Part shown: piece by piece, positions 2,474 to 50,361 of the stretch
Layout: every line of letters starts with the position of its first letter
How positions within the stretch are numbered: position 1 is the first letter of the stretch
From: Malacoraja senta
Lineage: Eukaryota
Direction of reading: 5' to 3'
Length of the DNA stretch: 64,000 bases
Assembly: GCA_038087875.1 (NCBI GenBank)
Contig: CM075991.1
Span: 10,356,001-10,420,000, forward strand
Notes under the pieces: generated by a model
The model's input: the letters and a program-made list of their open reading frames with translations, nothing else
Databases searched by the model: none
Told to the model about the DNA's origin: nothing
Position numbers and translations under genes: made by a program

Positions 2474-2676
2474 AGTAGACACAAAATGCTGGGGTAGCTC
2501 AGTGGGACAGGCAGCGTCTCTGGAGAGGAGGAATGGGTGACGTTTCGGGTCGAGAAGAAGGGTCTCGACCTGAAACGTCACCCATTCCTTCTCGCCAGAG
2601 ATGCTGCCTGTCACGCTGAGTTACTCCAGCATTGTGTCTACCTTCGATTTAAACCAGCATCTGCAGTTCTTTCCTT
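2474..2676. mobile_element. Penelope-derived fold-back (inverted tail) element
   Basis: gtagacacaaaatgctgg...gacgtttcgggtcgaga / tctcgacctgaaacgtc...ccagcattgtgtctac inverted arms. Confidence 0.75.
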
Positions 2677-6165: not shown

Positions 6166-6974
6166 GAATGGAAGCGAAGGGTTTACAATTACCAAAGCAC
6201 AGCTAGGGGAAGCAGCGAGGTGTGAGATTTCAATCTCCATTTTTCCATCTCCGTCCTCCAATTTTCCAATTTCAGGTCAGTCATTCCCATGGTTCTTCTC
6301 CCACAGATACCTGTCCATCTTGCCCCACCTGGTTCCATTTCCCCATCATCCCCTCCCCTTTCCCAATCTCCCTCGTACTGATGTCTACTGGCAATCGTTC
6401 CTCTCCATCTCAGTTCTGACGCAGAGTTTTAATCCAAAATGTCATCCTGTACCTCGTGCCTCGACTACCTGACCCGCTGGGTTCTTCCAGCGTCCTGTTT
6501 CTTCTTCCTTAAGGGCCTGTCCCACCTACGCGATTTTTTCAACGACTTGCCGGCACCTGTCATAGTCGCAGCAAGTTGCCGAAAATTTTCAACATGTTGA
6601 AAATCCAGTGGCGACCAGGAAAAGGTGTGACTCTTTGGGCGAATACTCACGACCATACAGGCGTCACAAGAGAAATAAAATTGCAGCAAGGTAGAAGCTG
6701 TGAACTACCAACGTCATTTTCTTATTTAATTTAATTTCCATGAGACATTTGCATTGGCACCAAAGCCTGGCAACTCTTGCATGCCGTCTCAGTGAACTAT
6801 TTCTACACACATTGTACTTATCGAGGATAGTGCTTTGGTATGGCAATACTTTAGTGAACTGTATGCAATAAAATAATTTCACCGTACCTAAACAACAAAA
6901 GCCCCAAATTCAATCCTGAGGTGATGGACTTAGTTCTGACACAATCCAGAAGGCTACGTCATCACAAGAAACTA

Positions 6975-7218
6975 CAGATGCTGGAATCTTGCTTAGAACG
7001 CAAAGTGCTGGAGTAACTCAGGGGATCAGACGGCTTCTCTGCAGAACATGGAGAGGCGACGTTTCAGATGGGGATCAAATAAGACGTTTCCTGAGCCGAA
7101 GCATTGCCTATCTATGTTGAATCAGTCTGAAGAAGGGTCTTGGCCAGAAACATTGCCTCTCCATGTTCTTCAGAGATGCTACCAGAGCCGCTGAGTTACT
7201 CCAGCACTTTGTGTTCTA
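6975..7218. mobile_element. Penelope-derived fold-back element with hammerhead-like core
   Basis: aaagtgctggagtaactca ... tgagttactccagcacttt arms; ctgaagaagggtcttggccagaaac at approx. 7127-7151. Confidence 0.7.
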
Positions 7219-8728
7219 AACCAAAGGGCTACAACAGGGTCGTGCAGAGTCTCCAGTATGATCTCTACAGGATGAGAACACAATTACATGCGATGACTTC
7301 CATCAGTTAATAAGTAGCTGTCGTTCAGTTTCTGGGCTCACGTGCGGCCAAAGGAAGACATATCAACAGATTATTCCCAGGCAATCAGAATCGTCAAAAG
7401 ATTACGCGGATGAGGTAAATTAGCTCAAGAAAATCTCAACTATAAATAACATGCTTGTATTGTGGCTTCACACATGTTTATACTGCTGGAAATGATCAGA
7501 AAAAGCACCATGCCTTCGCTGTCAGCCATGCCCAGCCCTGATCCAATGACTTGGGCTTTTGCAGACAATCAGAAGTGACTCACCTGCTGATTTTCACTTC
7601 CTCCCTGCAGAGAGATGTTTAGCCTCTGCTCCCTACATGTCAAATTAGCAAATGCCATGTGATAAAGTGTGCCCAAAACCACCCTCCTACCTATAACACA
7701 ACAACAGACAGGGGCAACAATGTGCAAAGGCACTTCCCTTGCAGCTCTAAGATAGCAACAATCCATCACTCTGAGAAATGAAGCATTTCCCCTTTTGGAC
7801 AGCATCTGAAGTTTATATTCTTCAATAAGACTCGGAGGGAAACCAGAGTTTCTTTCCCAAATTACTGACATGGCCACAAAAAGGTGGACTCGAGTGTTAT
7901 CTCATCCGCAACACAACATTTTGTTTCTTTTCTTGCATGTTCTTCACTAATATAGATGCAAATCACACGGTTCCTATTTGTTCAGCAGCGTAAATATAAA
8001 TGGAAGAACCCATCAGTATTAATCACCCACATCTCTCAGCATTTCACACTGTGCCTGGATTGTCAATATCATAATTATAGGAAGAAAAATAAATAAAAAC
8101 AAGCTCCATTTCACATTTGAGCTAAAAGTATTGCAACAAGCAGACCTTGTCTTATACTTCGTCCAATATTCAACTCATAATCCCAAGAGCCTTTCATTTT
8201 GAACCTATTTTTTAACAATAGTGATGTGATATTAATGGTTCTCTGGTCTAATATGAATAATATTTTGTGAAACAAAAAAAAATCAAACAATCTTGAGCCA
8301 GAAACATTTTATTAAACATGGCGCCAAACTGCAAATGATCAAAGATCATATCAGCATTAAAAGGAAGTATCACAATCTGCGTATCGTTAAGACATATTAG
8401 AATAGAGAAAGATATACAGTGTCACATCTGCTTCACCCTGGCACAATCTGGCCCTTCTGCTGGTTCTTGCCTCCATCCAGTTGCTCAAGCACAAGACAAG
8501 ACCATTCTTATTTGGAGCATCATTCCCAGTGCAAATAGGCCACATTGTAACCTCAACATGCAGTAGGTGACAACTCGCGTGAGAATCAGTGAAGGAAATT
8601 TGTACTGTGCTTTGAAAAGTAAATTATCCATCAATTGGCAAATGCCTCTTTGAACATTTGTATTCATAGGATCAGTCGCTAAATCTTTTAGGGCAAAGGC
8701 TCTCCATGACTTCAACCCAAGGGGAGGA

Positions 8729-9854: not shown

Positions 9855-10045
9855 AAAGGTGGACAAAATTGCTGGAGAAACTCAGCGGGTGCAGCAGCAT
9901 CTATGGAGTGAAGGCAACGTTTCGGGCCGAAACCCTCCTTCAGACGTTGCCTATTTCCTTCGCTCCATAGATGCTGCTGCACCCGCTGAGTTTCTCCAGC
10001 ACTTTTGTCTACCTTCGATTTTCCAGCATCTGCAGTTCCTTCTTG
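9855..10045. mobile_element. Penelope-derived fold-back element with target duplication
   Basis: Inverted arms; aaaaggatcttc repeated on both flanks (approx. 9843 and 10047). Confidence 0.8.
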
Positions 10046-12011
10046 AAAAAGGATCTTCTAGGTGCTTAATGGGCTAATCGGCAGCTAATAATGGTAAAAA
10101 TGTAACAACTGTCTAAGCTCCCAGTTCAAGAGCAGTCCTGACCCCCATCCATTGGAGACCTTTGGACCATCTTCATTCGGACGTTAGCTTGCACTAATCG
10201 TTATACCTTTTATCCTGTATATGTATGTACACTGAGGATTGTATCGTTTATAGTCTTTTCGCTGACTGGATAGCACGCAACCAAAAGCTTTCCGCTGTAC
10301 CTCGGTACGTGGCAATAATAAACTAAACGAAAGATTCCACAGAGGAAAAGTAACTGACAACTCAATCTTTCTAGATAGCCAGCAACCACATCCGCTATTT
10401 GGAACTGATTAATTGGGCAGATAAGCCTGTAAAGTAATAACATTTAGATTGAGTATCATCATCATTCATTGATTAGTGTGAAAGTTCAGATATTGCATCG
10501 CCATTCTCTAGTTTTCAAACTGCTGATCAACATGCAATAATAATAATAATAACAATAATAATAAAACATTACTTTCCTTTATTTCTAGATGCATCTTCAA
10601 ATAAAGCATCATGAATCGCTATCATTGGAAAATCATACCTGTTAATCAGTTCAGCGAGCATTGCAATTGCGGTTACACTCAGTGCTTCCAAAATTCATTT
10701 CAAGAGATTCTTTGAATTTCAAATATTTAACAAGTTAAAATCATACAGCCATCAGCAACTAACTAGAATTGTACTTGAGCTTGGTGGGTTACCTTTATCA
10801 TCTTCCATTGCCCAATCATGTCAAAAAGGCAATGAGTTTCAAGAAGATGCAAATCACTCCATTCAGGCCAAAAAAGGGGAAGTATTTACTGTTATCATAG
10901 AATCAGATTATTGTTATATTTCAAATGTAAACACATAATTAGAATATTCCAGCACTAAATTCTCACCGATTGTTCAGTTTAGGAATTAGAATTTGTTGTC
11001 ATGACAACAAATGACAACACAATAAAGATGGAACATACAGTCTGCCTAAAGCTCTGGAAATATTGTATTGCCCGTCTTGATGTACACAGATATACATGTG
11101 GGTACGTGCAAGCGCGTGCTCTTAGTCACACACACACGCATGCAGAAACACGCACACCCACACGATACAATGCTTTCAATGGAACTTTTGCACAATGGTT
11201 GTACAAAGTTTCAGGAGAGTGAAAGAATCTTGTTACTTTCTTCTGAATTTGAATGACATCATATGATTATTGATCTGCTGCTGGTCATGGCAACAGTTTT
11301 GTTGCATTCGCTCATACGATTCTTTTTTTCTGTTAGGTTTAGATATTTCCGTTCAAATTATCACGCACGGCCACTGTACAACAGCAGCGCAGATTAAAAA
11401 CATGCAAAATAAAATGAGTTTACAAACCTTCAAATTACATAACATATTCAAAACTACAATACATTTACAGCAAGCATAATGTCACCTCCTTCTCAAAATA
11501 AATAGAAATTAAGGTTTTATGATGTGATGTTAACCCAAGACATTGCCTGCACTGTACAATAGGTGGTATTTATCTGCTACCTGACTGGTTTACTTCAAAA
11601 CAATTTCCAGTAATCACAATGCAATCAATCCAATTTTATGGCCATAGTTCACCAAAAACGACATGACACATTTCTCTGCCGTGAAGAAAAAACACAAGTA
11701 GATGCTGCAAATTATTATAATAATCTCAATCTGTGCATCAGACTCTTCCATTCAGTACACAGCAAGATGCTAGAACTGGAATTAATACGGATATTCTGCT
11801 GGAGTTGCAAGTTTGTCAAAGATTGTTCGGGAAACTCAACTTGTAGCAAAAGGTCCATGCAAAAATAACAGTTCCCTGTTCTATTGGCAATATTACATGA
11901 TTATTACATTTTAATTATGTAATAATTAATTTGCTGCTGTCAAATACAAAGCATTCAGTATTTCTTCACTAGTTATAGAATATTCACTTGCTGTGAAATT
12001 TGGACATCTAA

Positions 12012-14910: not shown

Positions 14911-15774
14911 AAGTAATCAGTTAAGTGTTATTGAAAATCCAGATATGTCCTATTTACAAAATGCAAAATCCCATTACAATTACCATTCTGTTAAAAAATA
15001 ACTATTTGTAATCGCACAATTTCTTCCAAAATGAATAAGTATTAATATTCCAGGTAAGATTTACATTTTGCAGAAACAAAGAACTGCAGGTGCTGGCTTA
15101 TACCAAAGATAGACACAAAGGGCTGGAGTAACTCAGCAGGTCAGGCAGCATCTCGAGAGAGAAAAAAAAAAGGTGACATTTCAGGCTGGGTCCTAACCCC
15201 AAACATCACCAGTCCCTTTTTTCCAGAGATGCTGTCTGACCCACTGAGACACTCCAGCATTTTGTGTCTAAGATTTAAATCTTGTTAATTTATGGCTTTG
15301 CTAGAAATTACTGTCAATAAAACCACGATTAAAATCCTAATAAGTAAAACTAGATTTGTGCCGTTATGACAAATAAAACATGACATGCTCTAAGCACAAT
15401 AAAACAAGCAAAAAATGAACAGAGGGACACATGCTAAATAGCTTTGTGTGTTCAATTCAGAGCCACCAGTTGTGTTTTCCTGTATGACACTCTCAGCTCA
15501 TCAAGCTGCTCAAGGCCAACTCAGCGTGCAAGCTTCACAATCACAACCAGGTGGCAGGTGCACAATCAAACTCTTACAATGCACAGCATGGACTAGAGTT
15601 TTACAAACAGCAACTTGTCAATCTCAGCCAGGCTGGAAGCATCGTTTGAAGCTCAGGCTTCTCCAACGATATCCGAGTGCACTTTAAACAGCCTCTCAGA
15701 TCACTTTGTTAATTCAATTGGCATCAAACCGTGGCTTGGAACCGAGAAAGACGCAAAGTGCTAGAGTAACTCGA

Positions 15775-18641: not shown

Positions 18642-20194
18642 GGTTCTCTGGGAATGGGTAAAACATTATCAAAAATCAAAATGCTGGAGGAACTCATTGG
18701 GCCAGGCAGCATCGCTGCATGGAAATAAACGAACGATGTTTCAGATCAGGGCCCGACTTCAGACTAATACTTTATGTCAGTCTATAAATTCATTGATTCA
18801 ATGCCAGAATCAAGTGACCATCTTAACTCCAGCATCGATTTGTAGTAAAGCCACTCCCCCGATTCCTGAACAGATGCATTACCTGCATAATTTTTTCCCC
18901 AAACAGTTCAAAGTAACAAGTCTAAAGAAGGGACCCAACCCACAACATTATCTGTCTATTTCCCTCCACAGATGCTGCCCGGCTCGCTGAGTTCCTCCAG
19001 CAGTTTCTTTCTTATTCTCAGCAGGTATGATCGCCATCCCGTGACAGAAGGCATCAAGCCCAAACCAGCGTTGTCTAACTTTCCAATTGGCAACAACTCA
19101 AAGATCCGTAATCTGAGGCTGAAAGACAGATTCATCTTACTGTTTGCATCACTGTCTAATTGTATCCCACCCCTACTGGGATTGGCACACATCAGGAAGT
19201 TCCAAATATCATTCAAGGGACAGCACTCAATGTACATTATCAGGCAAATTATAGGAGATGGATTAAAAGTGCGGGATTGTCACACTCTGAGATTACAGAT
19301 AATTAACTGCAATTTATGTTTCAATTGATTCATAATGCTAATCATTCACACAGTTATAATGCACCGACTTTCAGTAAGGTAGACTCTTTTGAGACAGAGA
19401 ACCATGAGGTTTATTCCAGGCTTAATCAGATGTAGTGTGCATGAACTTGGCAAATAATAATAATAACAATAATATATTTTATTGTCATTGCACATATGTG
19501 CAACGAGATTTGGTATGCAGCTTCCATCCGATGTCATAACTTAAACTAATAAAATTTAGATTGAGATACCCCGAGAAACATGATTTATAAAAATGTGGGT
19601 TCCAGCTTTGATTGAATAATGTTGTGGGGGGGATAGGAAAACAGAGTTCAATGAACATAACTGTGTCCCAGTTAAAGAGTACTCCATCTGAAGTTTAGTT
19701 TGCAGGGCTTCTTTTCTGGAGATCCATTTTCTTGATAAGACACGCATCACAAGAAGCCAGCATAAAGGAATTTCCTGGATGTGCAACGTTAAACAGCAGT
19801 GAAGGTCAAAAGGAAGAATTGTCCAAACAACATTGGTGAACAGTTCAAAATGTCATTGGGGTGCATATAGGTACAAATTTGTACATGTGCGCAAAAATAA
19901 ATATTGAATAATACAGCATAGGTGGAGGCAATTAACCAGTGGAATTGAAGAACGATAGACACAAAATGCTAGAGTAACTCTGCAGGTCAGGCAGCATCTC
20001 TGGAGAAAATGGATAGGTGCCGTTTCGGGTTGGAACCCTTCTTCAGACTATATTTTGTGTCGATCTTTGGTATTAACCAGCATCTTCAGTTCATTTTTAT
20101 TACGAATTGACGGAAGAATGGCAAGGCCATATAAGCAAGTTGAGGACTAATCCAAATAGTTGTCCCATGTTATAAAGTGACTCTGATTATGCAA

Positions 20195-26900: not shown

Positions 26901-28170
26901 TTTTTTGTAGAAATATTTGTATTACTAGCTATATCCACACTATGCCTTTTTAGTTGAAAAAAGATGTCTAACACTTGTAAATTATCTGTTAATCACTTGT
27001 ATGTTTACATACATAACTAACCTTTATGCTATTTCCCAATCTACTTCACACAACCCAACTTCACACCTTTGCACTTGGTTCTGTTCAGAGTTAAGATACT
27101 AGTTTTAGATTGAACAAATTTACTTTCAAACATTATATAAAGTCCATTCTTCCTCAGAGGCTTCAAGGTTAATTCTCTCATTGCATCTTCTTCTGTTGGT
27201 TCCTCCAATGATGATCTAGCAAACCATCTCCTGCACACCCCAGAAAATCATCAACCAATTATTATTGCTGATGAAGAGTCCCAACCCAAATCGTCCCCTA
27301 TCCATGTTCTCCACAGATGCTGCCTGACCAACTGAGTTACTCCAGCATTTTTTTTTGTAAGCCAGCATCTACAGTTCCGCGTTTCTCCAATTATTACTGT
27401 CTGATTTGCCTCTTGCTTCATGAATTACCCTCATTGTATGTGTCTCAAAAATCTGGATTTATTCTATGCCCCATGTTACCCCGATTATTTGGTGGCTCTT
27501 TAGATAACTCCAAAGAATATCTTTTCTTCCTTAAGTCTAACCACACTGGTTATACTGTTTGAAAATCACAAAATGCAGATCTGGTAATCTGCAATAAAAA
27601 GAAACAATGCTAGAAAACTCAGATTAGGCAACATCTATGGGGGGGGGGGGAAAGAGTTAACGTTTCAAGTCCAAAACCCCTCATCAATACTAGGTGACAA
27701 AACAGGTTAATTTTAAATTACAAGTGAAGTAAGGAAGGATTGGATAGGACAAAGGGAGGATGGGGCCAGGTACTGAGAAGGGTCTCAATCCAAAACATCA
27801 CCTATTCCTTTTCTCCAGAGATGCTGACTCGCTGAGTTACTGCAGCCTTGTGTCTTCTCAGCGAGATGATCCCAACATTTATGGAGCTGTCTAGTGACCT
27901 AATAAATGAGGACAGTTAGACAGAAAGAAAGCAAACAAAGAGACATATTAAAGCTGTGAATTACAGATCTGAGCAACCATTTAAACCAGAAACCAAAAGG
28001 TGAATGCTGGAAATGTCCAACACATCAGGGGTGTCTGTGAATGTAGAAAAGCTGAGTTAATGCAGCCAGATGTGTAACATTCGAGCAGTTATAGTTGGTG
28101 CTGGAGGCCACACACAGACAGGTTAGAGTAGAAATGTGTTGGAGAGTTAAGGCGACAGATAAATAGAAGC

Positions 28171-28397
28171 TAGACAAAAATGCTGGAGAAACTCAGCGGG
28201 TGAGGCAGCATCTATGGAGCAAAGGAATAGGCAACGTTTCGGGTCGAAACCCTTCTTCAGACTGCCATCAGTCTGACGAAGGGTTTCGACCCGAAACGTT
28301 GCCTATTTCCTTCACTCCATAGATGCTGCCTCACCCGCGGAGTTTCTCCAGCATTTTTTGTCTACCTTCGATTTTCCAGCATCTGCAGTTCCTTCTT
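28171..28397. mobile_element. Penelope-derived near-perfect fold-back element with two opposed hammerhead-like cores
   Basis: ~93-bp inverted arms around approx. 28265; flanking direct repeat cagataaatagaagct / cagctaaatagaagct. Confidence 0.85.
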
Positions 28398-29756
28398 AAA
28401 CAGCTAAATAGAAGCTCTGGTTTAACTTGTGGATAAATCAGGGGCGCCAAAAGTTTCTTCCAAGCATAGAACGGCTTCAAGAGGTCTGCGATTCCTGGCA
28501 CCACAGGCACATGTTCTCCTCCCACCCTCCAACGTGTCCTGATGAAGGGGTTACGACCTGAAACATTAACTTTGTCTCTCTTCACACAGATGCTGCCTGA
28601 CTCGCTGCCTGATCTTCCGAGCTATGATCCTTGCTCTCTATCCCATCCGTCATAATCAGGGCTACCCTTCCTCCACTGTGTATGTTTGCTTGCATTATAT
28701 TACTGATAATTTACTGTATATTTGTTTGTTGAGGTTGCATTTAATGTGACTGTAAACCTTCAGCAGGCAGCTTTGGTCAGAGTGTATATAACAATTAAAC
28801 ACTCTTGACTCTCTTCCATTTTTACCAATGTCATCTGAAAGGCAAGTAACCCAGAATATTAATTTCCAACCTTGTTCACATTGCCACCTTGTCATCATAA
28901 TACTCTTAAATCATACCCATTTATTTCCATTTGTGCTAATAATTCATCTACCTTATTACAATGCTGCATTCACTCATATAAAGGGCCTTCGATTTGTCCT
29001 CTTAGCATTTGTCTTTTGCGGTATACTCTTATGCTCTGCCCTGACAGATTCTAGATCGCATTACTCATGACAGTCATAAGGAGAGACTGGGTTTTGTTTT
29101 CCCTGGAGCGGACTAGACGGAGGTGTGACCCCATAGAAGTATATAAAACAAAGGGAATAGATTATCTTTTTCCATGGTGTGGGTATAAATGACAAGAGGG
29201 CATAGATTTAAGATGAAAGTTAGCAGATTTACAAAGGGTCTGGGTAAGATTTTCAGACAGATTGGTTGGAGTCCAGGATGCATGCCTGAAGGATGCAGAT
29301 ATTCTCACATTTAAGAATGTGAGACAAATACGTGAATTCCAAGGCGTAGAAGACTACCGACCTAATGCAGGTAAGTGGCATTTGTATAGCTAAATACAAT
29401 GGGCAACATGGACATGTGCTAAAGGTAAACAAAAATGTTGGAGAAACTCAGCGGGTGAGGCAGCATCTATGAAGCGAAGGAAATAGGCAACGTTTCGGGC
29501 CGAAACCCTTCTTCAGACATCAATGTGTGCTAAAGGGCCTGTTTTTGTGTGGTATAACTCCATCCTTCTAAAACGACCTCACTTCTGGTCAAACATCCCT
29601 GTTGATCTTGACTAATAGAGTAATGGTCATTGATTCATACAGTACAGGAACAAGCCCTTTGGTCCAGCTCATCCATGCCAACCAAGATGGACATTAGTCC
29701 CATATCCCTCAATCCATGTACCTGTCTAAATGTCTTTTAAACATTGGAATTGTACC

Positions 29757-30883: not shown

Positions 30884-33800
30884 TTGTCATGGCTGATTCC
30901 ACCTGCGTGCAGAGAGCTTTTAGTGAGCACAAAGACACGAACCACAGAAACACAAACATTCCTGTCACACGTAAATTCAATTCAAACCTGATGTCCACAA
31001 CATCTCAAAGGGCTGTTGCCAGCTTTGCCTGCAGAAAGTTACAGGCTTTGATGGGAATCCAGTAGCTTGCTGCATGCTATTAATAGGACACAATTATATT
31101 TTGTCGATTTAAATTACTACTTGCGCCCATGTCCTAATATCAGCAAAACAACTCAAATAACATAAATCCCAATACAATTCTTGGTTTCCAATATTTAGAA
31201 ATGGTTTTAATATCCCTTTCTTTAATCCACAGTCAAACGGCCCTCTCACTTTAATTGGACTCCATCTGTCACAGTTTTGCCCACTTAATCTATCCTTTTG
31301 CAACCTCTTGCAGGCTATTTACTGTGCCAGCCCATCAATGTTGTCAGCAAAACTCAGATAAACGGCTCTCTATTCCTTCATCCAAATATTTATAAATATA
31401 GTGGCCGGGTACAGGATATCAGAGCAACAGCCAAGATCAACACAACCCTCCAGCTGGCAGACTGGGTGGAGAACGCTGATTTTCATTCCCTTTAACCAGG
31501 GGAGATGAGAATAATTTTAGTCTCATTACCACCCTGGCTTAGATCAACAGATTGCGATCCACCTTGTCTGACTGCAGAGTTTGTCTGTGTTTTCACGCTG
31601 ATAAACTTTAGATGGGAGCCACCTGAATTTCATTGAATCCTTATCTTGGTGCGAAAGCTGGTAAAGTCATTAAAATGTTGTATCAATGAACAGCAGGGAT
31701 TTACTGCATACGCAGCAAGGTAGAAGTACACTTGCTATGGCTAGCTGAAGAGATTTTTTTAAATAGCTCCGTCTCAACTCTATCCAGCCACTTGGTCATC
31801 TCCAGGTGCAGAAATAACTTTCCTTTCTTCCCATGTAATTCCCGGGGAGACAGATGGCAACCGAGTGGGAAGACAGTCTCTCGCCCCGGAATACAATTAC
31901 TTTCATCTCCAGTGACAAGATATGAATCAGGAGCAGACAGAGAGAGGAGACTTGCTTCCTGTGGCTTGTAAGGACCCATTCAAATAAGTGTGGCTAGCTT
32001 GACAAGCAGAGAACGTCATTTAACTTTGCTTCAGATGGATTCGTCATTCAGACTGCTTGCACCATTCACAGCAGGGTGTTTTATGAACATACGTATGTCA
32101 TAGATGTGGCTCCTGCGTCATTCAATTTCTCTACCTCAAATCCATTTTCCCATGAGATTCTCGTATACCCTCTATGTCCAAAATGCTCTCCAAATCTGCC
32201 TTCAATAGTCTGGAAACAGAAAAGCTTGGTAATATTGCAGTTAGATAAGGAGAGGGAGGTTTTTTGGGTCAGAAACTTTCCATCAATGAGAAAACTCAGG
32301 ACTAAAACAAGTTTTTAGTTTTGGAGAAAGGGGGGAGGAGACAGAGAGGCCAATTGGGTAGGAATGCAGGAGAGTTGAGTAGGAACATTTGAATCATACA
32401 AGTGGTGGTGGTGGTGGTGTCAGCTGAAAGTCAGTGGTAAAGGCTCGTGAATAATGGAAGGCATGCCTGGTACAAATAGGAGATTAAATTAAAGTAAACT
32501 AGTAGAGGAGAGAGAGTAAAGAAATTAAAATATTGGAACTACATGATACAAGCTGGTATGGCTGGTAATCTACACTTTGGGATAATAAATATAATCTATT
32601 TCCCTGGGTAGCAAGGGAAAGCAAAATGATAAACGGTATGGATATCAGTCTGAAGAAGGGTTTCGGCCTGAAACGTTGCCTATCTCCTTCGCTCCATAGA
32701 TGCTGCTGCACCCGCTGAGTTTCTCTACGACTTTTGTCTACCATGGATATCGGCAAGATGGAAGAGGGGATGAGTCATCCGAGCATCTGCTGGAACCTTG
32801 AACAAAACGCCAAGTGTTGGAGTAACTCAGCAGCCAGAAACCTTCGGTGGAGGGAATGATTTGGGGACATTTGAGATCCCAATCTGAAACATTGCCTCCA
32901 CAGATGCTGCCTGACTGTTGAGTTACTCCAGCTCTGTGTTTTGATTGGGGGTAAATAAATGATTTTATCTCCTCGAGAACATTCAAAAAGTAATACTTGT
33001 TTCTCTGTCAATCTCCTCAAAACTGCCGGCAACATCTACTGAATACAAGACTTGGAAAAGTAAATGAAATGTAAATTAACAAGTTTGAAATGAATGTCCC
33101 TGGTATAGCTTGTATTGTGGTTCTGTGTGGCCATTCAAGGGCGAAGCTAAAAGAGCAGGTATTGTACGTCTTCCAATTGCAGGGGAAGGTGATACTGGAA
33201 TAGGAATGGGTATTAGTGGATATGGGATAGTGCAGAACGATGCAGAGGGGATGTTCTCTTGGTAATACTGAAAAGGGAAGATCGAGTGGTGAATCTGGTC
33301 TCGTGGTATCATCAGTTCGAAGGTATCATCAGGTCAAAAGTTAGAGAGGATGATCAATTGAAAGTGCAGGCAAGGGGGAGGCAAAGATAGGAGAGGTTGC
33401 TTTATCTGGTTAGGCGGAGAGGTTAGACACAAACTGCTGGAGTAACTCAGCAGATCAAGCAGCACCTCTGGAGAAAAAGGATGGGTGACGTTTCGGGTCG
33501 ATGCCCTTCTTCAGACTGAAAATACAGGGGAGGGAACTGGAGGTGCGTGGGGAACAAAGTTCAGTAAATAAAACATTGGGAGGTGGCCCTGTCAACTATG
33601 ACGGAGATAAAACTAGAGTTGAGGGAAATATTCTCATTAATTACTCAACCACGGGCAACCAGGTGGGAATTTCCAAAAATTCACAACCTTCCAAGTTAGA
33701 AAATTCCATCTCAGCCTAAAAATAATAACGTTCTTAAGAATGTTATGATTCCTATGACCTCATTCTTCTGAACTAGAGAAAATGTAGGTCCAGTCTATTA

Positions 33801-35048: not shown

Positions 35049-36804
35049 ACAGAATATGAGAATGTACACCCAAACCGCAGTCAACTACAGTTCATTACGC
35101 CACTCTGATGACTTACTTGTTGACTCAGTGTCAACGGTTTTATGCAGATTCTTATACAGTAAATATTTCATAAATTGCTAGCACACAAATTAAAGAATGG
35201 GAAGACAGAAAAGGCATATCAGGAGATAAGGTGGACAAAAGCAGCTTGTTACAATTGTCAAGAATATATATTTAGAAAAATCAATAATTAAACAATAATA
35301 GAATATCAATATTTTGGGTCCAGTGGAAAAACCTTTACCTTGATTGCCTTCAACAATAAATTCAACATTCTTGTTCCCATCCCCACAACAAGCTCCATTC
35401 TAGAATCCTCAGATATATATTACTACTCCAATACCGACTTCTTGCACTCCAAATTTCTGTTGGCCTACCAATGACAAAGAAATATAGAAAGGAACAGGAA
35501 TCACCAATTTAGCCTCTTGTGCCTGTCCCACCCTCTAGTACAAGTATCATGCTCTACCTTAATACCATATTCCTGTGTAGGAACTGCAGATGCTGGTTTA
35601 CGCCGAAGATAGACAACAACAAAAATGCTGGACAGGCAGCATCTCTGGATAGAAGGAAAAGGTGACTTTTCGGGTCTCAACCTGAAATGTCACCCATTCC
35701 ACCTATCCAGAGACACTGCCTGTCCCACTGAGTTACTCCAGCATTTTGTGTCTATCTACCTATTCCTGTGTTCTCCCTAAACCCCCAACATGAGAATGCA
35801 ACACCTTGTTCTCAACATCCCAGCTGGACGAAACATCCTCCCTACTTCCAATCTGGCAGAGAGGGGCTAGCAAGAGGAAGGGAAGGGGTTAGGGTTGGGG
35901 GTTTGGAGGGGATGGGAAGAGGGTGAGGGGGCAAATGGGGGAGCTTGCATATAATATTTTGAAGCTTGCTTACAAATGGATTCTAATTATTTAATCTCCT
36001 GCAACAACATTTTACACCCTACCCACACTGTATCCCATCTTTATGCAGCCTTTCATTTGCCAAGAACATGGTCTGAATTCTGGCCATCTTTCTAACAGTC
36101 TTTATCTCATTGGGCCAGTTCACTGCATCTTTCAGTTCGGATGGATTTCAGCGGCTTCTCATTCCTCATCTCACTGCATTCCCCTTTACATGTGCACTCA
36201 CCCCATTCTGATCTTGCATATTTCTAGTGATGTCACTAAGACCTAGAACAAACTATCAAATAATCTAGAAGCGATTTGTCTGAAAAAGGATCTCGCCCCA
36301 AAACGTCACCATTCCTTCTCTCCAGAGATGCTGCCTGTCCCGGCTAAGTTACTCTAGCTTTTTGTGTCTATCTTCGGTTTAAACCAGCATCTGCAGTTCC
36401 TTCCTACACAAATAATCTACCTCGTACTTTTATGTTTGACTATCTTCAATCCATACTCCAGTACAGTAACTCTGAGCCAAAGATATTAGAACCAGATACA
36501 AATCCAACTGCAAGTTCATCCCATGCCATCTCGTGTTCCACATGCCGTTGCCCACACCCGCAACATGCACTTCCACCACCTCATTTAGATTCTTGATACA
36601 TTTTCATCTACATTTAGTAAGCTATTTGTTTACTCATTAACGTATACCAATGACAGTTTAACAAGATAGTAATTTGGGGGGGCGGCACAGTTGCACTGCG
36701 GTAGAGTTGCTGCCTTACAGCGCCAGAGACCGGGTTCAATCCTGACTACGGGTGCTGTCTGTATCTGTGTCTCTAAACTAAACTAAACTGACGTGATCAC
36801 TTGT

Positions 36805-37497
36805 GTTAAAGAAGGAACTGCAGATGCTGGAAAATCGAAGGTACGCAAAAATGCTGGAGAAACTCAGCGGGTGCAGCAGCATCTATGGAGCGAAGGAAAT
36901 AGGCAACGTTTCAGGCCGAAACCCTTCTTCAGACTGATAGGGGTGGGGAGAAGAAAGGGAAAAAGGCGGAGGAGAAGCCCGAGGGCTGGGGAGGGAGGAG
37001 ACAACCAGAGGGCTGATGAAGGGGAGGGGACAGCAAGGGCTAGCAGAATTGGGAGAATTCAATGTTCAAGCCCCCAGGATGTAGACTGCCCAAGCGGAAT
37101 ATGAGGTGCATTTCCTCCAATTTCCGGTGTTGCTCGCTGTGGCCATGGAGGAGACCCAGGACAGAGAGGTCAGATACGGAATGGGAGGGGGAGTTGAAGT
37201 GCTGAGCCACCGGGAGGTCAGGTTGGTTATTGCGGACCGACCGGAGGTGTTTCGGCGAAACGATCGCCAAGCTCCGCTTGGTCTCACCGATGTAGATCAG
37301 CTGGCATCTAGAGCAGCGGATGCAATAGATGAGGTTCGAGGAGATGCAGGTGAACCTCTGTCGCACCTGGGACGACTGCTTGGGTCATTGAATGGAGTCG
37401 AGGGGGGAGGTGAAGGGACAAGTGTTGCATCTCTTGCGGTTGCAAGGGAAAGTACCCCGGGGAGGGGGTGGTACGGGAGGGAAGGGAAGAATTGACA
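36805..37497 (-). mobile_element. Penelope-like retroelement 3' part: Cys-rich motif plus GIY-YIG endonuclease (frameshifted) plus hammerhead-like tail
   Basis: FTCISSNLIYCIRCSRCQLIYIGETKR...LPVAQHFNSPSH...RKLEE..LIFRLGSLHPGGLNIEF (37040-37366) is the GIY-YIG signature. Tail at 36805-36936. Confidence 0.92.
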
Positions 37498-38849
37498 AGG
37501 GATGTGATCACTTTCTGCCTTGAGCTTACACAAGCCACTGCAAGTGTTGGATGCAAAACAGCACATTCTCCTTCCTCTGCTCCAAATTACCATGCGTATA
37601 AGATTCTGTTTAGAAATTCCACAAGACCATCAGCAGATAACCCTTAATTTTACAATTGAGTCACCACGATAGTGCCCAGACAGCTTCTTGCCTGCAGTAA
37701 TTACTCTCTACTTAAAATTATAAGTAGGTTTAATAAGAAAACAAGGAGACAAGGTTTCCTGTGGCAGGCGGGGGGGGGGGGGGTGGGGTGGGGGGGATAG
37801 TAACCACATGTAAAATGATTAGCAAAAGAACAAGATGACTCGGAGATGCAAGGCTTTCATTCATAATTGCATAATTCTGCTTTTTTTTTTTAAACGTTTG
37901 AGAAACATTTAGACAGGTGCATGGGTAGGATAGTTTCAGAGGAATATGGGCCAAACGCAGGCAGGTGGAACCTGTATAGGTCAGCATGGGCTAGTTGGGC
38001 CGGAGGGCCTATTTCCACACTATACGATTCTTAATTATTTGAAATTAGTGGGAAAAGATAAGACGACAATTTCTGGACAACCCACTTTATTGCTGAACAT
38101 TTTACAAGACAGGAAGGAAAAAAAAGAATATATTCGGTGAAAATATCCACAATGGAGCAGCATAGGCGTGGACGTTTTGTTGACATGCCCAACCAAATGT
38201 TTCCATTCAACCTGCATCTGCTTTGAGATCAGAAAGTTAACAAATTTAAGTTGTGAAGAGTTAACTAATGTTACAAATGCACTATGAAACATAAATTGGC
38301 TTGATGTTAGGAAGCAGGGGTGATGGTGTGAGGTCGTTTTTTGGACAGGAGGCCAGTAACTAGCGGTGTGCCAAGGAGATAAGTGCTGGCTCATCATCCA
38401 GCATTTATTTCAACTATTTGAATGAGAACATAAAAGGCATGGTTAGTAAGTTTAATGATGACAATAAAAGAGGCGGTGTCATAGATAGTGAATGCGGTTA
38501 TTAACAAATACAGCAGGACCTTCACCAGCTAGCTCACTGACCGAGGACAGGAATAACAAATGTCGTTCCATTCAGGCAAGTGTGAGGAGTTGAATTTTGA
38601 CAAGTCAAAGGCACGACTTCCAGTCCATGGTAGGGTCCTGGGCACAGTTGTAGAACAGAGGGACCAATAATTGTATGTAAGTGGCGTCATAATACTTCAT
38701 GATGGGGAAAGCAACATTTGAACTGCCGGTCTTCATTAGTCAGTGCATTGAGTGTAAGGGTTAGGACGTTATGTCGTACAAGACACTGGTGGGACGTACA
38801 AGACATTGGTGGGACGTAACTGTGGAGTGCTGTGGGTTATCCTACAATA

Positions 38850-39440: not shown

Positions 39441-42176
39441 TAATAGGAAAGACATAATTAAGCTGGAGAGAGCACAAAGAAGATTTTTGAGAATGTTTCC
39501 AGAACTAGAGGGTCTGAGTTATAAGGAGAAGTTACCCAGGCTCGGATTTTGGTCCTTGGAGTGTAGAAGGCTGATGGGAGACCTTACAGAGGTGCACAAA
39601 ATCGTGGCAAGTATAGATAAGAATGCACACAGTCCCAGGGAAGGGGACTCAAGAACTAGAAACATAGAAAATAGGTGCAGGAGTAGGCCATTCGGCCCTT
39701 CAAGCCTGCACCGCCATTCAATATGATCATGGCTGACAATCCAACTAAGGGGCTGAGAGGGGAAAGATTTAAAATGCACCCGAGAGGTCATTTTTTCCAC
39801 ACGGAGGGTGGTACGTATGTGAAACAAGCTGCCGGAAGATAGACACAAAATGCTGGAGTAACTCTGCGAGACAGGCAGAAATGGCAGGTTGAGGCAGGTA
39901 CAATAACAAAATTTAAAATACATTTAGGCAGGTTCATCAATAGGAAAGGTTTAGAGGAATGTGTGCCAAATTAGTGCAAATAAGACCCACGTTAGATGTC
40001 ATCTTGGTCAGCAGGAACAAGTTGGGCTGAAGGGCCTGCTTGCACGTTGTATGACTATGCGTTTAATTTGTGATTGTGAAATTTTTTATAAAGGGATACA
40101 AGGATATGAGCATTAATATCAGGAATCAGTGCTGGAATGCTAAAGAGCAAGTCTGTGCCATGGAGTTTGAGGCCGGTTAAATTTCTGCTAGAGCGTTTTA
40201 TTTCCTGTGGTGGCTGCAACTTGTTTAACTTCCACCTCCTCCATATGAGGAACAAGAGCCTGCCTCTAAAAGAAATGGCATCCCAGACAGGTGGACATTA
40301 CTTTGTTTCCTCATCCAGAGCAATAGCAAGTTAAAAGCTACAATGATCAAAGCGAGTCTGTATTCATGCTAAGGAAACATTACAGCTATTATGAATCTAT
40401 CACATAACAAAGCCCTTTCAAGTCTTACAAGAAACCGGAAAGAGTAACATCACTCTTAATTAAATAGGTGCATCAAACACAATGCTCAGACCAAACACCC
40501 TGTCAGTAATTCAGAGTCTCTTGCAGGTTGTTTGGGTTTGTGGAAGCTTTATTCCCACAAGTGAAATGCAAGTTTGCCTCACAAGTAGAAATTCAGAACA
40601 AACAAAAACATCACAGACCTCCTTGAAGTTGGATGGATGTGGGCTGTGTATAACCCAGGAAAGATCAGTCTCATTAAGTTGTAAAATCTCAAAAGTCATA
40701 CTCAGATGTTTTGAAGCTCCTGACCTCGTAAAGGCAGCATCTGAAAAAATGCCACTGATCCATAGTATTAAAAACAAGACAAAGTAAAATTCCCATAACT
40801 CCCGAGCACTTATAGGCTGGACAGAAAACTGCTGTGACTTTTCTGGCGAGGCAACAATTTATGCGATTTCATGTGTAGGAAGGAGCTGCAGATGCTGCTT
40901 CAAACCGAAGATGGACACAAAACGCTGGAGTAACTCAACGGAACAGGCAGCATCTCTGGAGAGAAGGAATGGGTGATGTTTGGGGTCAAAGGGTCTCAAC
41001 CTGAAATGTCACCCATTCCTTCTCTCCAGAGATACCGCCTGTCATTCATGTTACGCCAGCATTTTGTGTCTATCTTACATGATTTCATACTATGTTCAGC
41101 CACTTGTAAAAGATGCAACCAGAACACCACAGCACAAACATGACTGGCTCTCGAATTTAAAATGTGTTAGCAACGTCCCACAATCAACAACAAAACCCAC
41201 AAACAAATCGTGCCCAATACTGGGATCCACACTTTAAAGAAGGACGTGAAGTTGTGTCTCTATTTTCTGAGAACTTCTGAATTTATCCAAATCTCAATCT
41301 GGAATGATTCGGGTTTTTCTGCATAACATTATTTGATGAGCATTGCTCCTGAGGCATTAAGAACAATCCCAGAGGAATTTCAACCATGTTAAATATTACC
41401 ACAGTTGCAAAATATATTGGTAGAAAACATACTAAGAAGCAACAAACACAAATCACAAAAATAAGTCTGAAGACGGGTCCTGACTTGAAACGTCACCTTT
41501 CCTTTTTCTCAGCCTGACCCGTTGAGTTACTCCAGCACTCTAGTATAAACCAGCATCTGCAGTTGCTTTATTCTACTAAAATATTACATACCTTTATTTT
41601 CGTAACAGATTGAGGTGGTTGCTGGCAACATTTTGTATCCATTCCTAATTCCCCTTGAGGTGATGTGCTAAACTGTCCTCTGGAACTGCTGCAGTCTATG
41701 TGGTAGGATGTTACAATGTGTATAAAACACAAGGTGGAATGGATAAGCAATGTTTTGCGTCCCAACCTGAAACATCGCCTATCCTTTCACACCACAGATG
41801 CTTGCTGACCTGCCTGGTTGCTCCAACACCTTAAGCACAATTCCAGTGTCTGTGTGTTACAATGTGTAGTCAGCTTTCCAGGATTGTGGCTCAACAACAA
41901 GGAAAGAATTTCCAACATGAATGTTGTGTCGATCAGTGTGGGATTTGAAGGTTGTGGTGCTCTCATGCCTCTGCCTTTATGCTTGCAGGTGCTACATAGC
42001 ATGAGTTTGGCTTAATTCTCAAATTGCTACATTAGTGGCCATCAGCTTTTCAAACTAGTATTATATAGTTCATACTGGTCTCTGAAGACCAAGCCAAGTT
42101 TGAAATTTTAAAAACTAATTTTGGACCACTACAAATCAGAAGCATCAGGGCATTTTGCTACAAATACTGTGGTCTG

Positions 42177-42207: not shown

Positions 42208-42208
<1 letters not shown>

Positions 42209-43661: not shown

Positions 43662-43867
43662 AGAAAGAACTGCAGATGCTGGTTTAAATCGAAGGTAGAC
43701 TCAAAATTGTGAAGAAACTCAGCGGGTGAAGCAGCGTCTCTGGAGAGAAGGAATGGGCGACGTTTTGGGTCGAGACCCTAACCCTGAAGGGTCTCGACCC
43801 GAAACGTTGCCCATTCATTCTCTCCAGAGATGCTGCCGCACCCGCTGAGTTACTCCAGCATTTTGTG
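43662..43867. mobile_element. Penelope-derived fold-back element with 14-bp target duplication
   Basis: gtgctccttgagta on both flanks; inverted arms. Confidence 0.85.
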
Positions 43868-48335: not shown

Positions 48336-49188
48336 ACGATTCAAAGACATTATACTTTTATTTCATTCAAATTGTTGCCTTCCTCAAAACAACTTTCAAG
48401 TTTATAAAGTCCAAGACTCAAATGCTGCTCTTGCATCTACAGAAAATCTATTTAACCTTCCATCTTGTTTTCTCTATCATTTCTTTCCAAATTTTGAAGA
48501 CATTCTCCTGCAGTCCCGATTATTGTAATTCAAGGGATCCTAGGATTCCGAATCCTAAAATTGAAGAATTTTTTAACTTGCTGAATTTTGCCTTTTTCCT
48601 GCAAATGTCATCTGTAACCAAATCCTTCTGCCACAAAATTATAGGTTCACATTCTCCTTTATTGGGGCCTGCAAGAAGGTTGGTGCCAAAGTATCAACTG
48701 CAAACACGTTATAATTGAAGTGTATTTTATAATAATCTAAAACAGTCTCCACAGACGTTCAAAGTGTTCTGCAATCAAAGCCAGTACGTTTGACAATGCC
48801 AAGAGACGTTTTATGTTGTTTTGTCCACAGGTGGGCACAAACAATGTTCAAACCTTCACTTCAAACTCCACTGCATCAATGTAGCACAATGATACCCAGG
48901 ACAGTTGTAAGCCCCTTGCCAAGAAAACAATTCCCTCCTTCCAGATCCTAACTTGCAAGAGCTGGAATTCAAATTACTGGCTATTTTAAGATCATTGAAC
49001 TCTTATTGCAAGTTTATAAGCCTGTTCTCGTGCCAATTTTGTGACTTCCCTACTGAGAACAAGAGGAATAAAATAACAGAAACATAATCTTCTCTGAGTT
49101 GCTCTTCTCTCCATCCACAGCCAGACGTTGTGATGAAATCCTCATCCAGAGTCATCCCTTCATTCTCTATGTGGGAATACATAGCACA

Positions 49189-49372
49189 GGTAGACAAAAG
49201 TGCTGGAGAAACTCAGCGGGTGCGGCAGCATCTATGGAGCGAAGGAAATAGGCAACGTTTCGGCCCGAAACGTTGCCTATTTCCTTCGCTCCATAGATGC
49301 TGCCGCCACCTGCTGAGTTTCTCCAGCACTTTTGTCTGCCTTCGATTTTCCAGCACCTGCAGTTCCTTCTTG
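49189..49372. mobile_element. Penelope-derived collapsed palindrome
   Basis: ~150-bp near-perfect palindrome centred on 49264 (gtttcgg c ccgaaac). Confidence 0.85.
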
Positions 49373-50361
49373 AACTAAACAAAAGCGCAGCGGTACTCCA
49401 TCAGAGCACCGAATTACAGACAGTAACTGTGCCCTTTCCGGCCACACCAGCACTATTATGAAATGCCACGAATTATCTTTGGAACCAGCAAAGAAGATTC
49501 TTCCCAATTTCAACCAGTAAAGGAAAACCAAGAATAAAGCATCATCCTTGTACTTTTTTCTTAAAAAGGAAACTGTCACAAAAGTAAACCTGTCAGCACG
49601 GTAGACAACTACTACGTATTCTTATGCAAAATGACACAGCTGGAGTTGGTTTATTTTCCACACAACTTTATCTGCAGATCTCGATTCCAAATGCTACAAG
49701 GATTGAGGGAACATTCAATACCAGAGTTTAACATAAAAATTCAGACCAGACCTACAGACCTAAATATAACATTCCAGCTGAACTTAAAGGGAAAGTGCAA
49801 TGTATAATTGGGAACCTGTGCTTTGATTACAAAATGCATTTCCCTGTTGATTTGTGTAATGTGCATTTTTATAAGTTTGTTTACTTGAAGCTGCAATCAC
49901 TCTCTTGCTTTCTTTTAACATGTCACAGGTAGCATCTCTGCTCCAGGCGAGAAGGTTGCAAGGTCCATGCCCTGTCTTGGACCCACACATACAGGTTGCC
50001 AGTCCAGCGGCATTCTGTGAACTGCACACTTGGATGTGTTTGCTCTTGAATGATGCAAGGTCCAGTCTATGTTCCAGTGGAATGAATAAATCCTAAAGTG
50101 GTGCGGTGGTAAGAGAGAAAGAAATTTGTATGATGCAGCCAAGAGTCTGTAGAAGGGTCTCGACCCAGAAAATCTCCTATTCCTTTTCTCCAGAAATGCT
50201 GTCTAACCCGCTGAGTTACGCCAGCTTTTTGAGTCTATCATGCTTTAACCATCATGACCAAATCATCAGATATAATTTACTAGCGTCTCCACAAGGCGCT
50301 AGGAAGGCTACAGTTGCACGACTGTGTTTAGTTTTGGTCACGCTGCTTTCCGAAACATGTT

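What the first reader, a model, noticed from the sequence alone, without database searches (positions are those of the whole stretch)
28156..28417. Family of short Penelope-derived fold-back insertions that appear to move as their own units
Seen: at least ten 150-250 bp elements made of two inverted copies of the Penelope tail with no ORF (e.g. near 2474, 6975, 9855, 15070, 28171, 35580, 40880, 43662, 49189). Several of these, and some single-tail copies, are bracketed by 8-16 bp direct repeats of unique flank: cagataaatagaagct/cagctaaatagaagct (28156/28401), gtgctccttgagta (43648/43867), aaaaggatcttc (9843/10047), tattcctgtgt (35567/35761), atggatatc (32638/32743), aaataatcta (36258/36410). 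The same tail ends the GIY-YIG-coding copy at 36805-37497. Known: Penelope-like elements produce inverted partial pseudo-LTRs. Inference: this may be a non-autonomous, retrozyme/MITE-like hairpin retroelement mobilised in trans, in at least two subfamilies (gaaacgttgcctatttcc vs gaaacgtcacccattcc).
Basis: partly seen in the sequence, partly recalled or inferred. Interest (0 to 1): 0.7.

Follow-up and report, generated by a model that had tools for sequence, protein, structure and literature searches.

The report
Truncated fold-back Penelope retroelement insertions
These short hairpin-shaped insertions are real, but they look like the stubby leftover ends that Penelope-type jumping genes are known to leave, each made afresh, rather than a new element that copies itself.

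Summary
Observation confirmed. All nine named fold-backs and all six claimed flanking repeats exist. Duplications scoring ≥8 flank 15 of 30 elements against 13 of 394 random intervals.

Ten clear fold-backs have ten different centre junctions, including three in one young clade shared with single arms and a GIY-YIG-coding copy.

The shared outer ends come from the parent. Every fold-back (10 of 10) pairs an arm with a ~35-nt tail and an arm without: the published 'inverted pLTR plus tail' layout of Penelope-like elements (PLEs). It matches the two internal RT starts and two-strand nicking shown in vitro.

Best model: twin-primed, abortive PLE insertions that stop at a minimal hammerhead motif and join by microhomology. 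It is not a retrozyme (no tandems, ends not at the cleavage site) and not a MITE.

One residual oddity: 15-16 of 24 single-tail copies begin within 9 nt of the hammerhead start, echoed in contigs of three relatives. This hints at a fixed RNA 5' end or RT block. The scan noted the same fold-backs before in other shark-type DNA. No genome or RNA was available.

The parts
28156..28171 (.). Left copy of 16-bp target-site duplication (1 mismatch to right copy)
28171..28264 (-). Short (tail-less) arm: PLE pLTR end in antisense, from the short end (about +92) back to -4 (numbering: +1 = C of the CTGA hammerhead core)
28265..28266 (.). Centre junction, 2-nt filler (CC)
28267..28401 (+). Long arm: PLE pLTR end in sense from -6 to the long end
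28271..28302 (+). Minimal type I hammerhead motif (2-bp stem I, CTGANGA, 4-bp stem II, GAAA, palindromic ACGT). Activity untested
   Evidence: definition from PMC4209133; no Rfam hit
28365..28401 (+). Unpaired ~35-nt 'tail', present on this arm only
28401..28416 (.). Right copy of the target-site duplication
2476..2676 (+). Fold-back (short left, long right); arms reach about +12/+3; no clear duplication
6966..7219 (-). Fold-back (long left); complex ~55-nt centre with a third short piece; no clear duplication
9855..10047 (+). Fold-back, young clade; arms -2/+24, 2-nt microhomology; 12-bp duplication
15074..15270 (-). Older fold-back (long left), centre in stem II; 9-bp exact duplication
19954..20100 (+). 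Very lopsided fold-back: short arm to -3, long arm only the last ~50 nt; 7-bp duplication
35579..35760 (-). Fold-back (long left); arms +16/+9 overlapping in a 5-nt stem II microhomology; 11-bp duplication
40873..41080 (-). Fold-back (long left); arms about +16/+7; 8-bp duplication; relatives' contigs run into its arms
43662..43866 (-). Fold-back (long left); arms +8/+6 with 6-nt filler; 14-bp duplication
49188..49378 (+). Fold-back, young clade; both arms to about +11, one copy of stem II/loop forms the centre; no clear duplication
32647..32742 (+). Single short arm (-3 to -6 through short end), 9-bp duplication; type example of single short units (also 17209, 29422, 46071, 47710, 62232, 50143, 57460)
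36278..36409 (+). Single long arm (-2 through tail) with 10-nt 5' filler, 10-11-bp duplication; type example of single long units (also 17522, 25617, 27268, 41464)
36803..37503 (-). 5'-truncated parent-type PLE copy: CX4CX2C linker, broken GIY-YIG with CxxC, 3' UTR pyrimidine tract, hammerhead motif, tail; 13-bp duplication

Best explanation
Each fold-back is an independent, abortive insertion made by the RT/GIY-YIG protein of an endonuclease-positive Penelope-like element (Neptune/Nematis-type linker). SHOWN in the sequence: duplications of 7-16 bp; two fixed 3' ends about 35 nt apart; one of each per fold-back; a different centre at each locus, often a 2-13-nt overlap inside the palindromic hammerhead stem II or a short filler; and single short, single long and longer ORF-bearing copies in the same subfamilies. 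SHOWN by others in a related PLE in vitro: both target strands are cut and extended, and RT starts at two internal sites that bound the tail. INFERRED: the (predicted) dimer nicks both strands 7-16 nt apart. One nick primes cDNA from the tail end, the other from the inner start. Both cDNAs usually stall at or within the hammerhead region after 70-135 nt, and their 3' ends are joined by microhomology, giving a head-to-head palindrome with one tail. If only one cDNA is kept, a single short or long arm results; if RT reads on, a longer truncated PLE. About 0.85 that they are independent PLE products, about 0.6 for twin priming in particular.
For: Asymmetry in 10 of 10 fold-backs (p about 0.001 if arm types paired at random). 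Ten different centres. The starred young clade (99/95) mixes 3 fold-backs with unlike centres, 6 singles and the EN-coding copy. Fold arms end in +6..+24 in 13 of 24 cases vs 3 of 24 single-tail copies (hand tally; Fisher p 0.005). The same stem II overlap occurs at 35579 and in a much older family at 32780-32945, as expected from convergence through microhomology. Lopsided (19954) and three-piece centres (6966, 42845) point to template jumps. Literature: inverted truncated copy, tail on one end, duplications and junction palindromes in PLEs (PMC3846280 passages; PMC8557442 passages); opposite-strand pairs of minimal hammerheads 100-700 bp apart (PMC4209133); two RT starts bounding the tail, both strands cut and extended, predicted dimer (PMC11167929 main text). 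In four runs, 12 of the 15 joints shown anchor at a long end, a short end or the hammerhead start.
Against: Only one window and 10-12 fold-backs; no genome was held. Different centres could also come from later deletion at the tip of one original palindrome. The tree has only 2 starred branches of 35, and fold arms are somewhat clustered (10 changes vs shuffled mean 13.0, 34 of 500 shuffles as low; partner arms inflate this). PMC11167929 found no difference in RT start between the two strands, so strict one-of-each pairing is my inference, and that element is Poseidon clade, not Neptune type. Three of nine named fold-backs have no clear duplication. The model does not by itself explain why so many 5' ends fall at -7..+2. 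The tailed arm is the more truncated at the centre in 7 of 9 untied cases by my tally; one search tested 6 of 8 (p 0.29), and it is not significant either way.
Confidence: 0.72

Rival explanations
1. One reading: a hairpin RNA (short antisense arm, long sense arm, free tail) is transcribed from master fold-back loci and retroposed in trans from its single-stranded tail. Centre differences arise later by deletion at the cruciform tip.
For: The tail stays unpaired in the predicted fold and so is accessible. Outer ends are uniform. pLTR sequence alone suffices for mobilisation in trans (PMC3846280 passage). Central deletion of palindromes is established knowledge (recalled).
Against: Ten of ten centres differ. 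Even fold-backs whose arms reach the -5 region have unlike fillers (2 nt, ~25 nt, ~55 nt), which deletion does not create. Three young fold-backs (arms 92-99% like single arms and the EN-coding copy) share no junction. The short end also ends single arms, so it needs no hairpin RNA. Copying would have to unwind ~95 bp of duplex (-168 kcal/mol).
Confidence: 0.1
2. Self-priming: the nascent cDNA, or an antisense template as proposed by Arkhipova et al. 2013, folds back at the palindromic stem II and copies itself, so one priming event makes both arms.
For: Centres are enriched in the palindromic stem II. Partner arms are each other's nearest or near-nearest match at 2474, 6966, 9855, 28171 and 49189. 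The model is in print (PMC3846280 passage).
Against: Fold-back of a tailed cDNA predicts that the tailed arm reaches furthest into the centre; it does so in only 2 of 9 untied cases (tally, not significant). Single short arms with duplications need an independent start at the short end, which two-start priming supplies. Shared variants are also expected if both RTs read one RNA.
Confidence: 0.13
3. The 100/135-nt unit is a discrete product. The PLE transcript (or a short RNA from dispersed units) has a fixed 5' end at the TCAGT just before the hammerhead, so RT starting internally near that end makes a complete 'strong-stop'-like cDNA, and the units may re-amplify like a SINE. This is compatible with twin priming for the fold-backs; it differs in what limits cDNA length.
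For: 15 of 20 single arms (16 with one ambiguous call) start within -7..+2, and only 4 longer copies run past (about 0.3 expected from the body stop rate). No fold-back arm passes -9. About 1000 contigs in each of three relatives continue from a stem II start into ATCAGTCTGAAG and then into unrelated AT-rich sequence. An Inr-like TCACT is noted in a rotifer pLTR; that TCAGT fits the initiator consensus is recalled.
Against: The same spot is a pyrimidine tract plus CAG, and in D. virilis the intron's 3' end maps to the 5' end of helix I (PMC4209133). A bound splice acceptor, or simple RT stalling at the tract, explains the hotspot without a special RNA. Contigs that read further upstream may have been laid on other copies, which biases. 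No start-site data.
Confidence: 0.25

Closest known systems
Complex insertions of canonical EN+ Penelope-like elements: pLTR, adjacent inverted 5'-truncated copy, 30-40-bp tail on one end, variable TSD (PMC3846280; PMC8557442 fig. 2 legend)
   Same: Head-to-head inverted arms, tail on one arm, 7-16-bp duplication, palindrome or microhomology at the junction, solo pLTR pieces
   Different: Here both arms are usually only 70-135 nt with no ORF, the density is very high (about 40 PLE pieces, 11.6% of the window), and the 5' ends pile up at the hammerhead start
Poseidon of Anolis carolinensis (PAc), PMC11167929
   Same: Two 3' ends bounding a tail, AC-rich long end, hammerhead upstream of the RT starts, copies not ending at the hammerhead cut site
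   Different: The parent here has the CX2-5CxxC linker that Penelope/Poseidon lacks; the hammerhead is about 65-100 nt from the RT starts; no biochemistry here
Dispersed single and opposite-strand dual minimal hammerheads of truncated PLEs (PMC4209133, Schistosoma and vertebrates)
   Same: Minimal type I motif with palindromic positions 15.2-16.2, mostly as single elements, some as opposite-strand pairs about 100-700 bp apart
   Different: In many fold-backs here the motif is cut through at stem II; stems are shorter (2-bp stem I, 4-bp stem II)
Non-LTR retrozymes (PMC7229834; bioRxiv 10.64898/2026.07.22.740005)
   Same: Non-coding, pLTR-related, type I hammerhead, long duplications
   Different: Retrozymes are head-to-tail tandems giving circular RNAs cut at the ribozyme; these are inverted or single and bounded by RT start sites
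L1 twin priming (recalled; not read here)
   Same: Second nick primes a second cDNA, giving a 5' inversion inside one TSD with microhomology at the junction
   Different: L1 inverts upstream, non-overlapping sequence; here both cDNAs copy the same stretch, so a palindrome results

Membership tests
EN+ Penelope-like element insertion | Sequence continuous with an RT/GIY-YIG ORF of PLE type | tested here: met
   The tail follows a broken GIY-YIG frame at 36803-37503; 56% identical to P0003, which has RVT_1 and GIY-YIG
EN+ Penelope-like element insertion | Inverted 5'-truncated copy head-to-head with the sense copy | tested here: met
   10 clear fold-backs
EN+ Penelope-like element insertion | 30-40-bp tail on one end only | tested here: met
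   10 of 10 fold-backs have one tailed arm, about 33-37 nt
EN+ Penelope-like element insertion | Variable-length target-site duplication | tested here: met
   7-16 bp; 15 of 30 vs 13 of 394 at score >=8. Empty sites not seen
Neptune/Nematis clades | CX2-5CxxC linker before GIY-YIG and CxxC between GIY and YIG | tested here: met
   CX4CX2C and CxxC in the frame; definition from PMC8557442 passages
Neptune/Nematis clades | RT phylogeny places it in Neptune rather than Nematis | not tested
   No full RT in the window and no labelled reference set fetched
Minimal type I hammerhead of PLEs | CUGANGA and GAAA cores, stem II with G10.1-C11.1, palindromic 15.2-16.2, short stem I | tested here: met
   Cores nearly invariant in 22 arms; 89% of cells paired vs 10-46% for slid controls
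Minimal type I hammerhead of PLEs | Covariation supporting the fold | tested here: inconclusive
   One double-sided change; 149 of 500 shuffles as high; no Rfam match at gathering score
Minimal type I hammerhead of PLEs | Self-cleavage | not testable with these tools
   Needs in vitro transcription
Non-LTR retrozyme | Head-to-tail tandem units, each with an intact hammerhead | tested here: not met
   No tandem of the unit among 48 arm hits or in the tandem scan of 25000-50000
Non-LTR retrozyme | Unit ends defined by ribozyme cleavage (about +28) | tested here: not met
   5' ends cluster at -7..+24 and 3' ends at about +92 and +128; one longer copy ends at +31
Non-LTR retrozyme | Circular monomer RNA | not testable with these tools
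   No RNA holder listed; contigs only
MITE (non-autonomous DNA transposon) | Terminal inverted repeats reaching both ends | tested here: not met
   One end overhangs by ~35 nt in 10 of 10
MITE (non-autonomous DNA transposon) | Fixed-length TSD and uniform internal sequence within a family | tested here: not met
   TSD 7-16 bp; 10 different centres
Self-propagating non-autonomous retroelement family (SINE-like) | Copies share one structure and form a clade apart from the autonomous partner | tested here: not met
   Not met for fold-backs. Open for the single 100/135-nt units, which share both ends within a few bases
Self-propagating non-autonomous retroelement family (SINE-like) | Own transcript | not testable with these tools
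   No raw RNA reads offered

The most novel reading that the evidence does not exclude
Skate-type PLEs produce mainly a discrete 100- or 135-nt cDNA that runs from one of two internal RT starts to a fixed RNA 5' end at TCAGT, just before the hammerhead: a retrovirus-like 'strong-stop' DNA that is integrated directly. The fold-backs record a dimer using both starts at once, one per nicked strand. The units may carry their own start site and re-amplify in trans, making a PLE-driven SINE-like family that fills about a tenth of this intron. The genome would then hold a huge in vivo read-out of the unresolved PLE integration step.
Probability: 0.22. Interest if true: 0.55.

Novelty: new member of a known kind. 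Interest (0 to 1): 0.27.

Why it matters
As a new hairpin retroelement it would have been surprising, but the evidence points to the known PLE insertion layout in its shortest form. The remaining value is mechanistic. How PLEs make inverted repeats and tails is called unresolved in PMC8557442 and only partly answered in PMC11167929. The strict one-tail-per-fold-back rule, the junctions in the hammerhead stem and the sharp 5' stop are countable at very large numbers in cartilaginous-fish genomes and can discriminate twin priming from self-priming. Such dense intronic palindromes would also be a source of double-stranded RNA in pre-mRNA (inference, untested).

Tried and rejected
No whole genome is held, so no genome-wide copy count. 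Rfam: 0 matches at gathering score, so the hammerhead call rests on motif and pairing only; covariation was not above shuffles.

Sequencing runs: no RNA holder listed, which is no evidence either way. All 24 listed runs were contigs and 4 were laid.

Empty sites: relatives' flank contigs run into the arms at 28171-28401 (X2 both sides; X7 and X9 right side), 40873-41080 (X7, X2), 29422 (X2, X9) and 43662-43866 (X9), so these look shared and no empty site was seen. X2 and X9 contigs leave the stretch at 37501/37503 with 53/57 letters unplaced, and an X2 contig stops at 32630 with 106 unplaced. This suggests empty sites for two young copies but does not show them.

A shared high-copy centre junction: none among the 15 joints shown of 52,226. 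The tool dropped many joints and k-mer contigs collapse palindromes, so this is inconclusive. Contig depth was not used as copy number.

Retrozyme and MITE readings were rejected (see membership). Spliced-template origin of the 5' end: no common upstream exon in the fillers or loose-end consensus; few cases, not excluded.

Literature searches for a described ORF-less fold-back PLE family: 'Penelope palindromic non-autonomous shark' (1 irrelevant paper); 'Penelope twin priming' (3 papers, listings only, none on PLE mechanism by title or abstract start); 'non-autonomous Penelope' (1 preprint that mentions short non-autonomous Penelope elements in butterflies without structure in the 2 passages seen); skate/Chondrichthyes terms (listings only); 'Penelope-like fold-back hairpin solo pLTR'. 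Repbase, Dfam and subscription papers (e.g. Arkhipova 2006) are not in the library, so absence from print is not shown. The supplements of PMC11167929 held as text had no hits; its Fig. S2 and the bioRxiv supplements, not seen, may bear on the 5'-end hotspot. A sequence look-up in earlier scan notes found nothing.
Full report
Setting. No whole genome is held. Top protein hits of the endonuclease fragment are Leucoraja erinacea and Rhincodon records, so the DNA is from a cartilaginous fish, probably a skate. An ORF at 52090-52743 (-) has SAMD1_WH and linker-histone domains; I recall this as the N-terminus of KAT6A/B, so the region is probably intronic (inference).

The element at 28156-28417. 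It is a 16-bp duplication (one mismatch), a 94-nt antisense arm, a 2-nt filler, a 135-nt sense arm and the second duplicate. It folds as one hairpin with z = -22.5, leaving the last ~37 nt unpaired. Numbering from the C of CTGA as +1, each arm is the 3' end of a Penelope-like element (PLE): ATCAGT, then a minimal type I hammerhead motif, then ~65 nt to a 'short end' near +92, then a ~35-nt tail to a 'long end' near +128. The hammerhead cores are nearly invariant in 22 arms. Seven predicted pairs hold in 89% of cells against 10-46% for slid controls, but covariation is no higher than shuffles, and Rfam finds nothing. The same tail ends the 5'-truncated copy at 36803-37503. Its broken frame has a CX4CX2C linker and a GIY-YIG with CxxC and is 56% identical to a whale-shark RT + GIY-YIG protein. 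By the definitions in PMC8557442 (passages) this is Neptune/Nematis type, not Penelope/Poseidon; the RT tree was not tested.

The population. A scan gave 48 arm hits; about 40 PLE pieces cover 11.6% of the window by my boundaries. Duplications scoring >=8 flank 15 of 30 elements against 13 of 394 random intervals. They run 7-16 bp and flank fold-backs, single short arms, single long arms and the EN-coding copy alike. Three of the nine named fold-backs have none that is clear. Nine duplicated words checked occur only at their own two places in the window.

The centres of the ten clear fold-backs are all different: -4/-6 with CC (28171), -2/+24 with a 2-nt overlap (9855), one shared stem II loop (49188), +16/+9 with a 5-nt overlap (35579), about +12/+3 (2476), about +16/+7 (40873), +8/+6 with a 6-nt filler (43662), a decayed stem II join (15074), -3/about +78 (19954) and a three-piece centre (6966). 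In a tree of 38 arms the fold-back label needs 10 changes (shuffled mean 13.0; 34 of 500 as low). The starred young clade (99/95) holds three fold-backs with unlike centres, six singles and the EN-coding copy. Only 2 of 35 branches are starred, so the tree is weak beyond that. The outer ends are shared, but also by singles and longer copies. All 10 fold-backs have one tailed and one tail-less arm (p about 0.001). Fold arms end within +6..+24 in 13 of 24 cases against 3 of 24 single-tail copies (hand tally including the 42845 and 18671 pairs; p 0.005). The caveat is that later deletion at a palindrome tip can also diversify centres, although it does not make fillers or third pieces.

Relatives. 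Twenty-four runs were listed, all contigs, none an RNA holder on record. Four were laid on 27900-44300: X1 nearly identical (possibly the source sample) and X2, X7, X9 about 4-5% different in long pieces. Their flank contigs run into the arms at 28171, 29422, 40873 and 43662, so those insertions look older than the split and no empty site was seen. X2 and X9 contigs leave the stretch at the 5' junction of the EN-coding copy, which suggests but does not show an empty site. Because copies from the whole genome pile on the tails, the tables give a rough wider view. Of the 24 loose-end rows shown (of 29,702), the long end (36410) has 2195-2741 contigs followed by unrelated sequence. At 40989, 965-1049 contigs in each relative continue upstream as ATCAGTCTGAAG and then AT-rich noise rather than into that locus's centre; the mirror image appears at 43779 in X2 and X7. 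Twelve of the 15 joints shown (of 52,226) anchor at a long end, a short end (39835/6) or the hammerhead start (42306), as checked. No shown joint is a high-depth fold-back centre, but the tool dropped many rows, so that is inconclusive.

Mechanism. PMC11167929 (abstract and main text) shows that a lizard Poseidon protein, predicted to be a dimer, cuts and extends both target strands and starts RT at two internal sites that bound the genomic tail; hammerhead cleavage is not needed. I infer twin priming: one nick primes from the long end, the other from the short end, both cDNAs stall around the hammerhead, and their ends are joined through the palindromic stem II or short fillers. Loss of one cDNA gives a single arm; read-through gives a longer truncated PLE. 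That paper saw no strand preference of start site, so the one-of-each rule goes beyond it. The published alternative is self-priming (PMC3846280, passages). Fold-back of a tailed cDNA predicts that the tailed arm reaches furthest inward, which holds in 2 of 9 untied cases by my tally. This is not significant (one search tested 6 of 8, p 0.29).

The residual oddity. Fifteen of 20 single arms (16 with one ambiguous call) begin within -7..+2, four stop earlier, and four longer copies read past. About 0.3 would be expected from the stop rate along the body. No fold-back arm passes -9. Three causes fit. (i) A transcription start at TCAGT (initiator consensus recalled; an Inr-like motif is noted in a rotifer pLTR), which would make the unit a complete strong-stop-like cDNA. 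(ii) A block at a splice acceptor: the spot is a pyrimidine tract plus CAG, and the D. virilis intron ends at the 5' end of helix I (PMC4209133, parts 1-2 read; intron and internal promoter in PMC2377424, abstract and passages). (iii) Plain stalling. I could not separate these. Upstream sequence differs between subfamilies, which can shorten alignments, though six of the ten duplication-bounded single-tail copies also start in this zone.

Comparison with what is known. The inverted truncated copy, one-sided tail, duplications, junction palindromes and solo pLTRs are described for PLEs (PMC3846280; PMC8557442). Opposite-strand pairs of minimal hammerheads 100-700 bp apart are reported as truncated PLEs (PMC4209133). 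Non-LTR retrozymes are defined by head-to-tail tandems and circular RNA (PMC7229834, passages; bioRxiv 10.64898/2026.07.22.740005, parts 1-3 read); no tandem is seen here and the ends are not the cut site. MITE features fail (unequal ends, variable duplication). I found no paper on ORF-less fold-backs in cartilaginous fishes or on the 5' hotspot in searches, but repeat databases and subscription papers are outside the library. Earlier notes of this scan reached a like verdict on other genomes. They are unchecked AI notes, were seen after my reading was recorded, and are not counted as support.

Verdict. The feature is real and is the shortest form of a known PLE insertion layout. Self-propagating hairpin family about 0.1. 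Interest 0.27, owed to the mechanistic read-out (strict asymmetry, sharp 5' stop).

Noticed in passing
window 29828-30227 and 58962-59351: Two copies of a ~350-bp element with ~70-100-bp terminal inverted repeats flanked by TTA/TAA (PIF/Harbinger-type MITE, label recalled). At both loci the element is preceded by the same extra ~48-bp inverted piece of its own end, starting at the same base after a T run, although the outer flanks differ. Unlike the PLE fold-backs, this compound structure is repeated, so it may move as a unit.
   Followed up: no
window 20280-20808 and 42306-42339: A longer PLE fragment whose 3' end stops at +31, three bases past the presumptive hammerhead cut site, and a hammerhead-only fragment (+2 to +35). 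Possibly copies of self-cleaved RNA; single cases.
   Followed up: partly
window 17209-17310 inside 16652 to at least 17350: A young short arm sits in opposite orientation inside the ORF remnant of an older PLE, without a duplication. It mimics the classic inverted-pLTR layout but is a later insertion.
   Followed up: partly
window 42170-42373: A 204-bp stretch starting with an (AAGT)n run that contigs of relatives X2 and X9 skip: a lineage-specific insertion; it contains the hammerhead-only fragment.
   Followed up: no
window 29422, 36803, 47710, 62232, 17522: Several young PLE units sit in or at the tails of other repeats (SINE-like tails, label HE1 recalled; one in a LINE-like remnant), which hints at a target preference.
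   Followed up: no
window 61607-62059: Two SINE-like copies in inverted orientation about 200 bp apart (arms I20-I22).
   Followed up: no
window 36939-37000 (-), also 16760-16810, 13040-13100, 33520-33570: A pyrimidine tract followed by (AT)CAG directly before the hammerhead core in longer copies of several subfamilies (CAC in the 13040 copy): splice-acceptor-like and initiator-like at once.
   Followed up: partly
window 52090-52743 (-): Host exon with SAMD1_WH and linker-histone domains, recalled as KAT6A/B. A 200-N gap and a long purine/pyrimidine tract follow at about 53100-54100.
   Followed up: partly
window 38851-39345 and 44379-44786: Two near-identical LINE-type C-terminal ORF remnants (CR1/L2-like, label recalled).
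   Followed up: no
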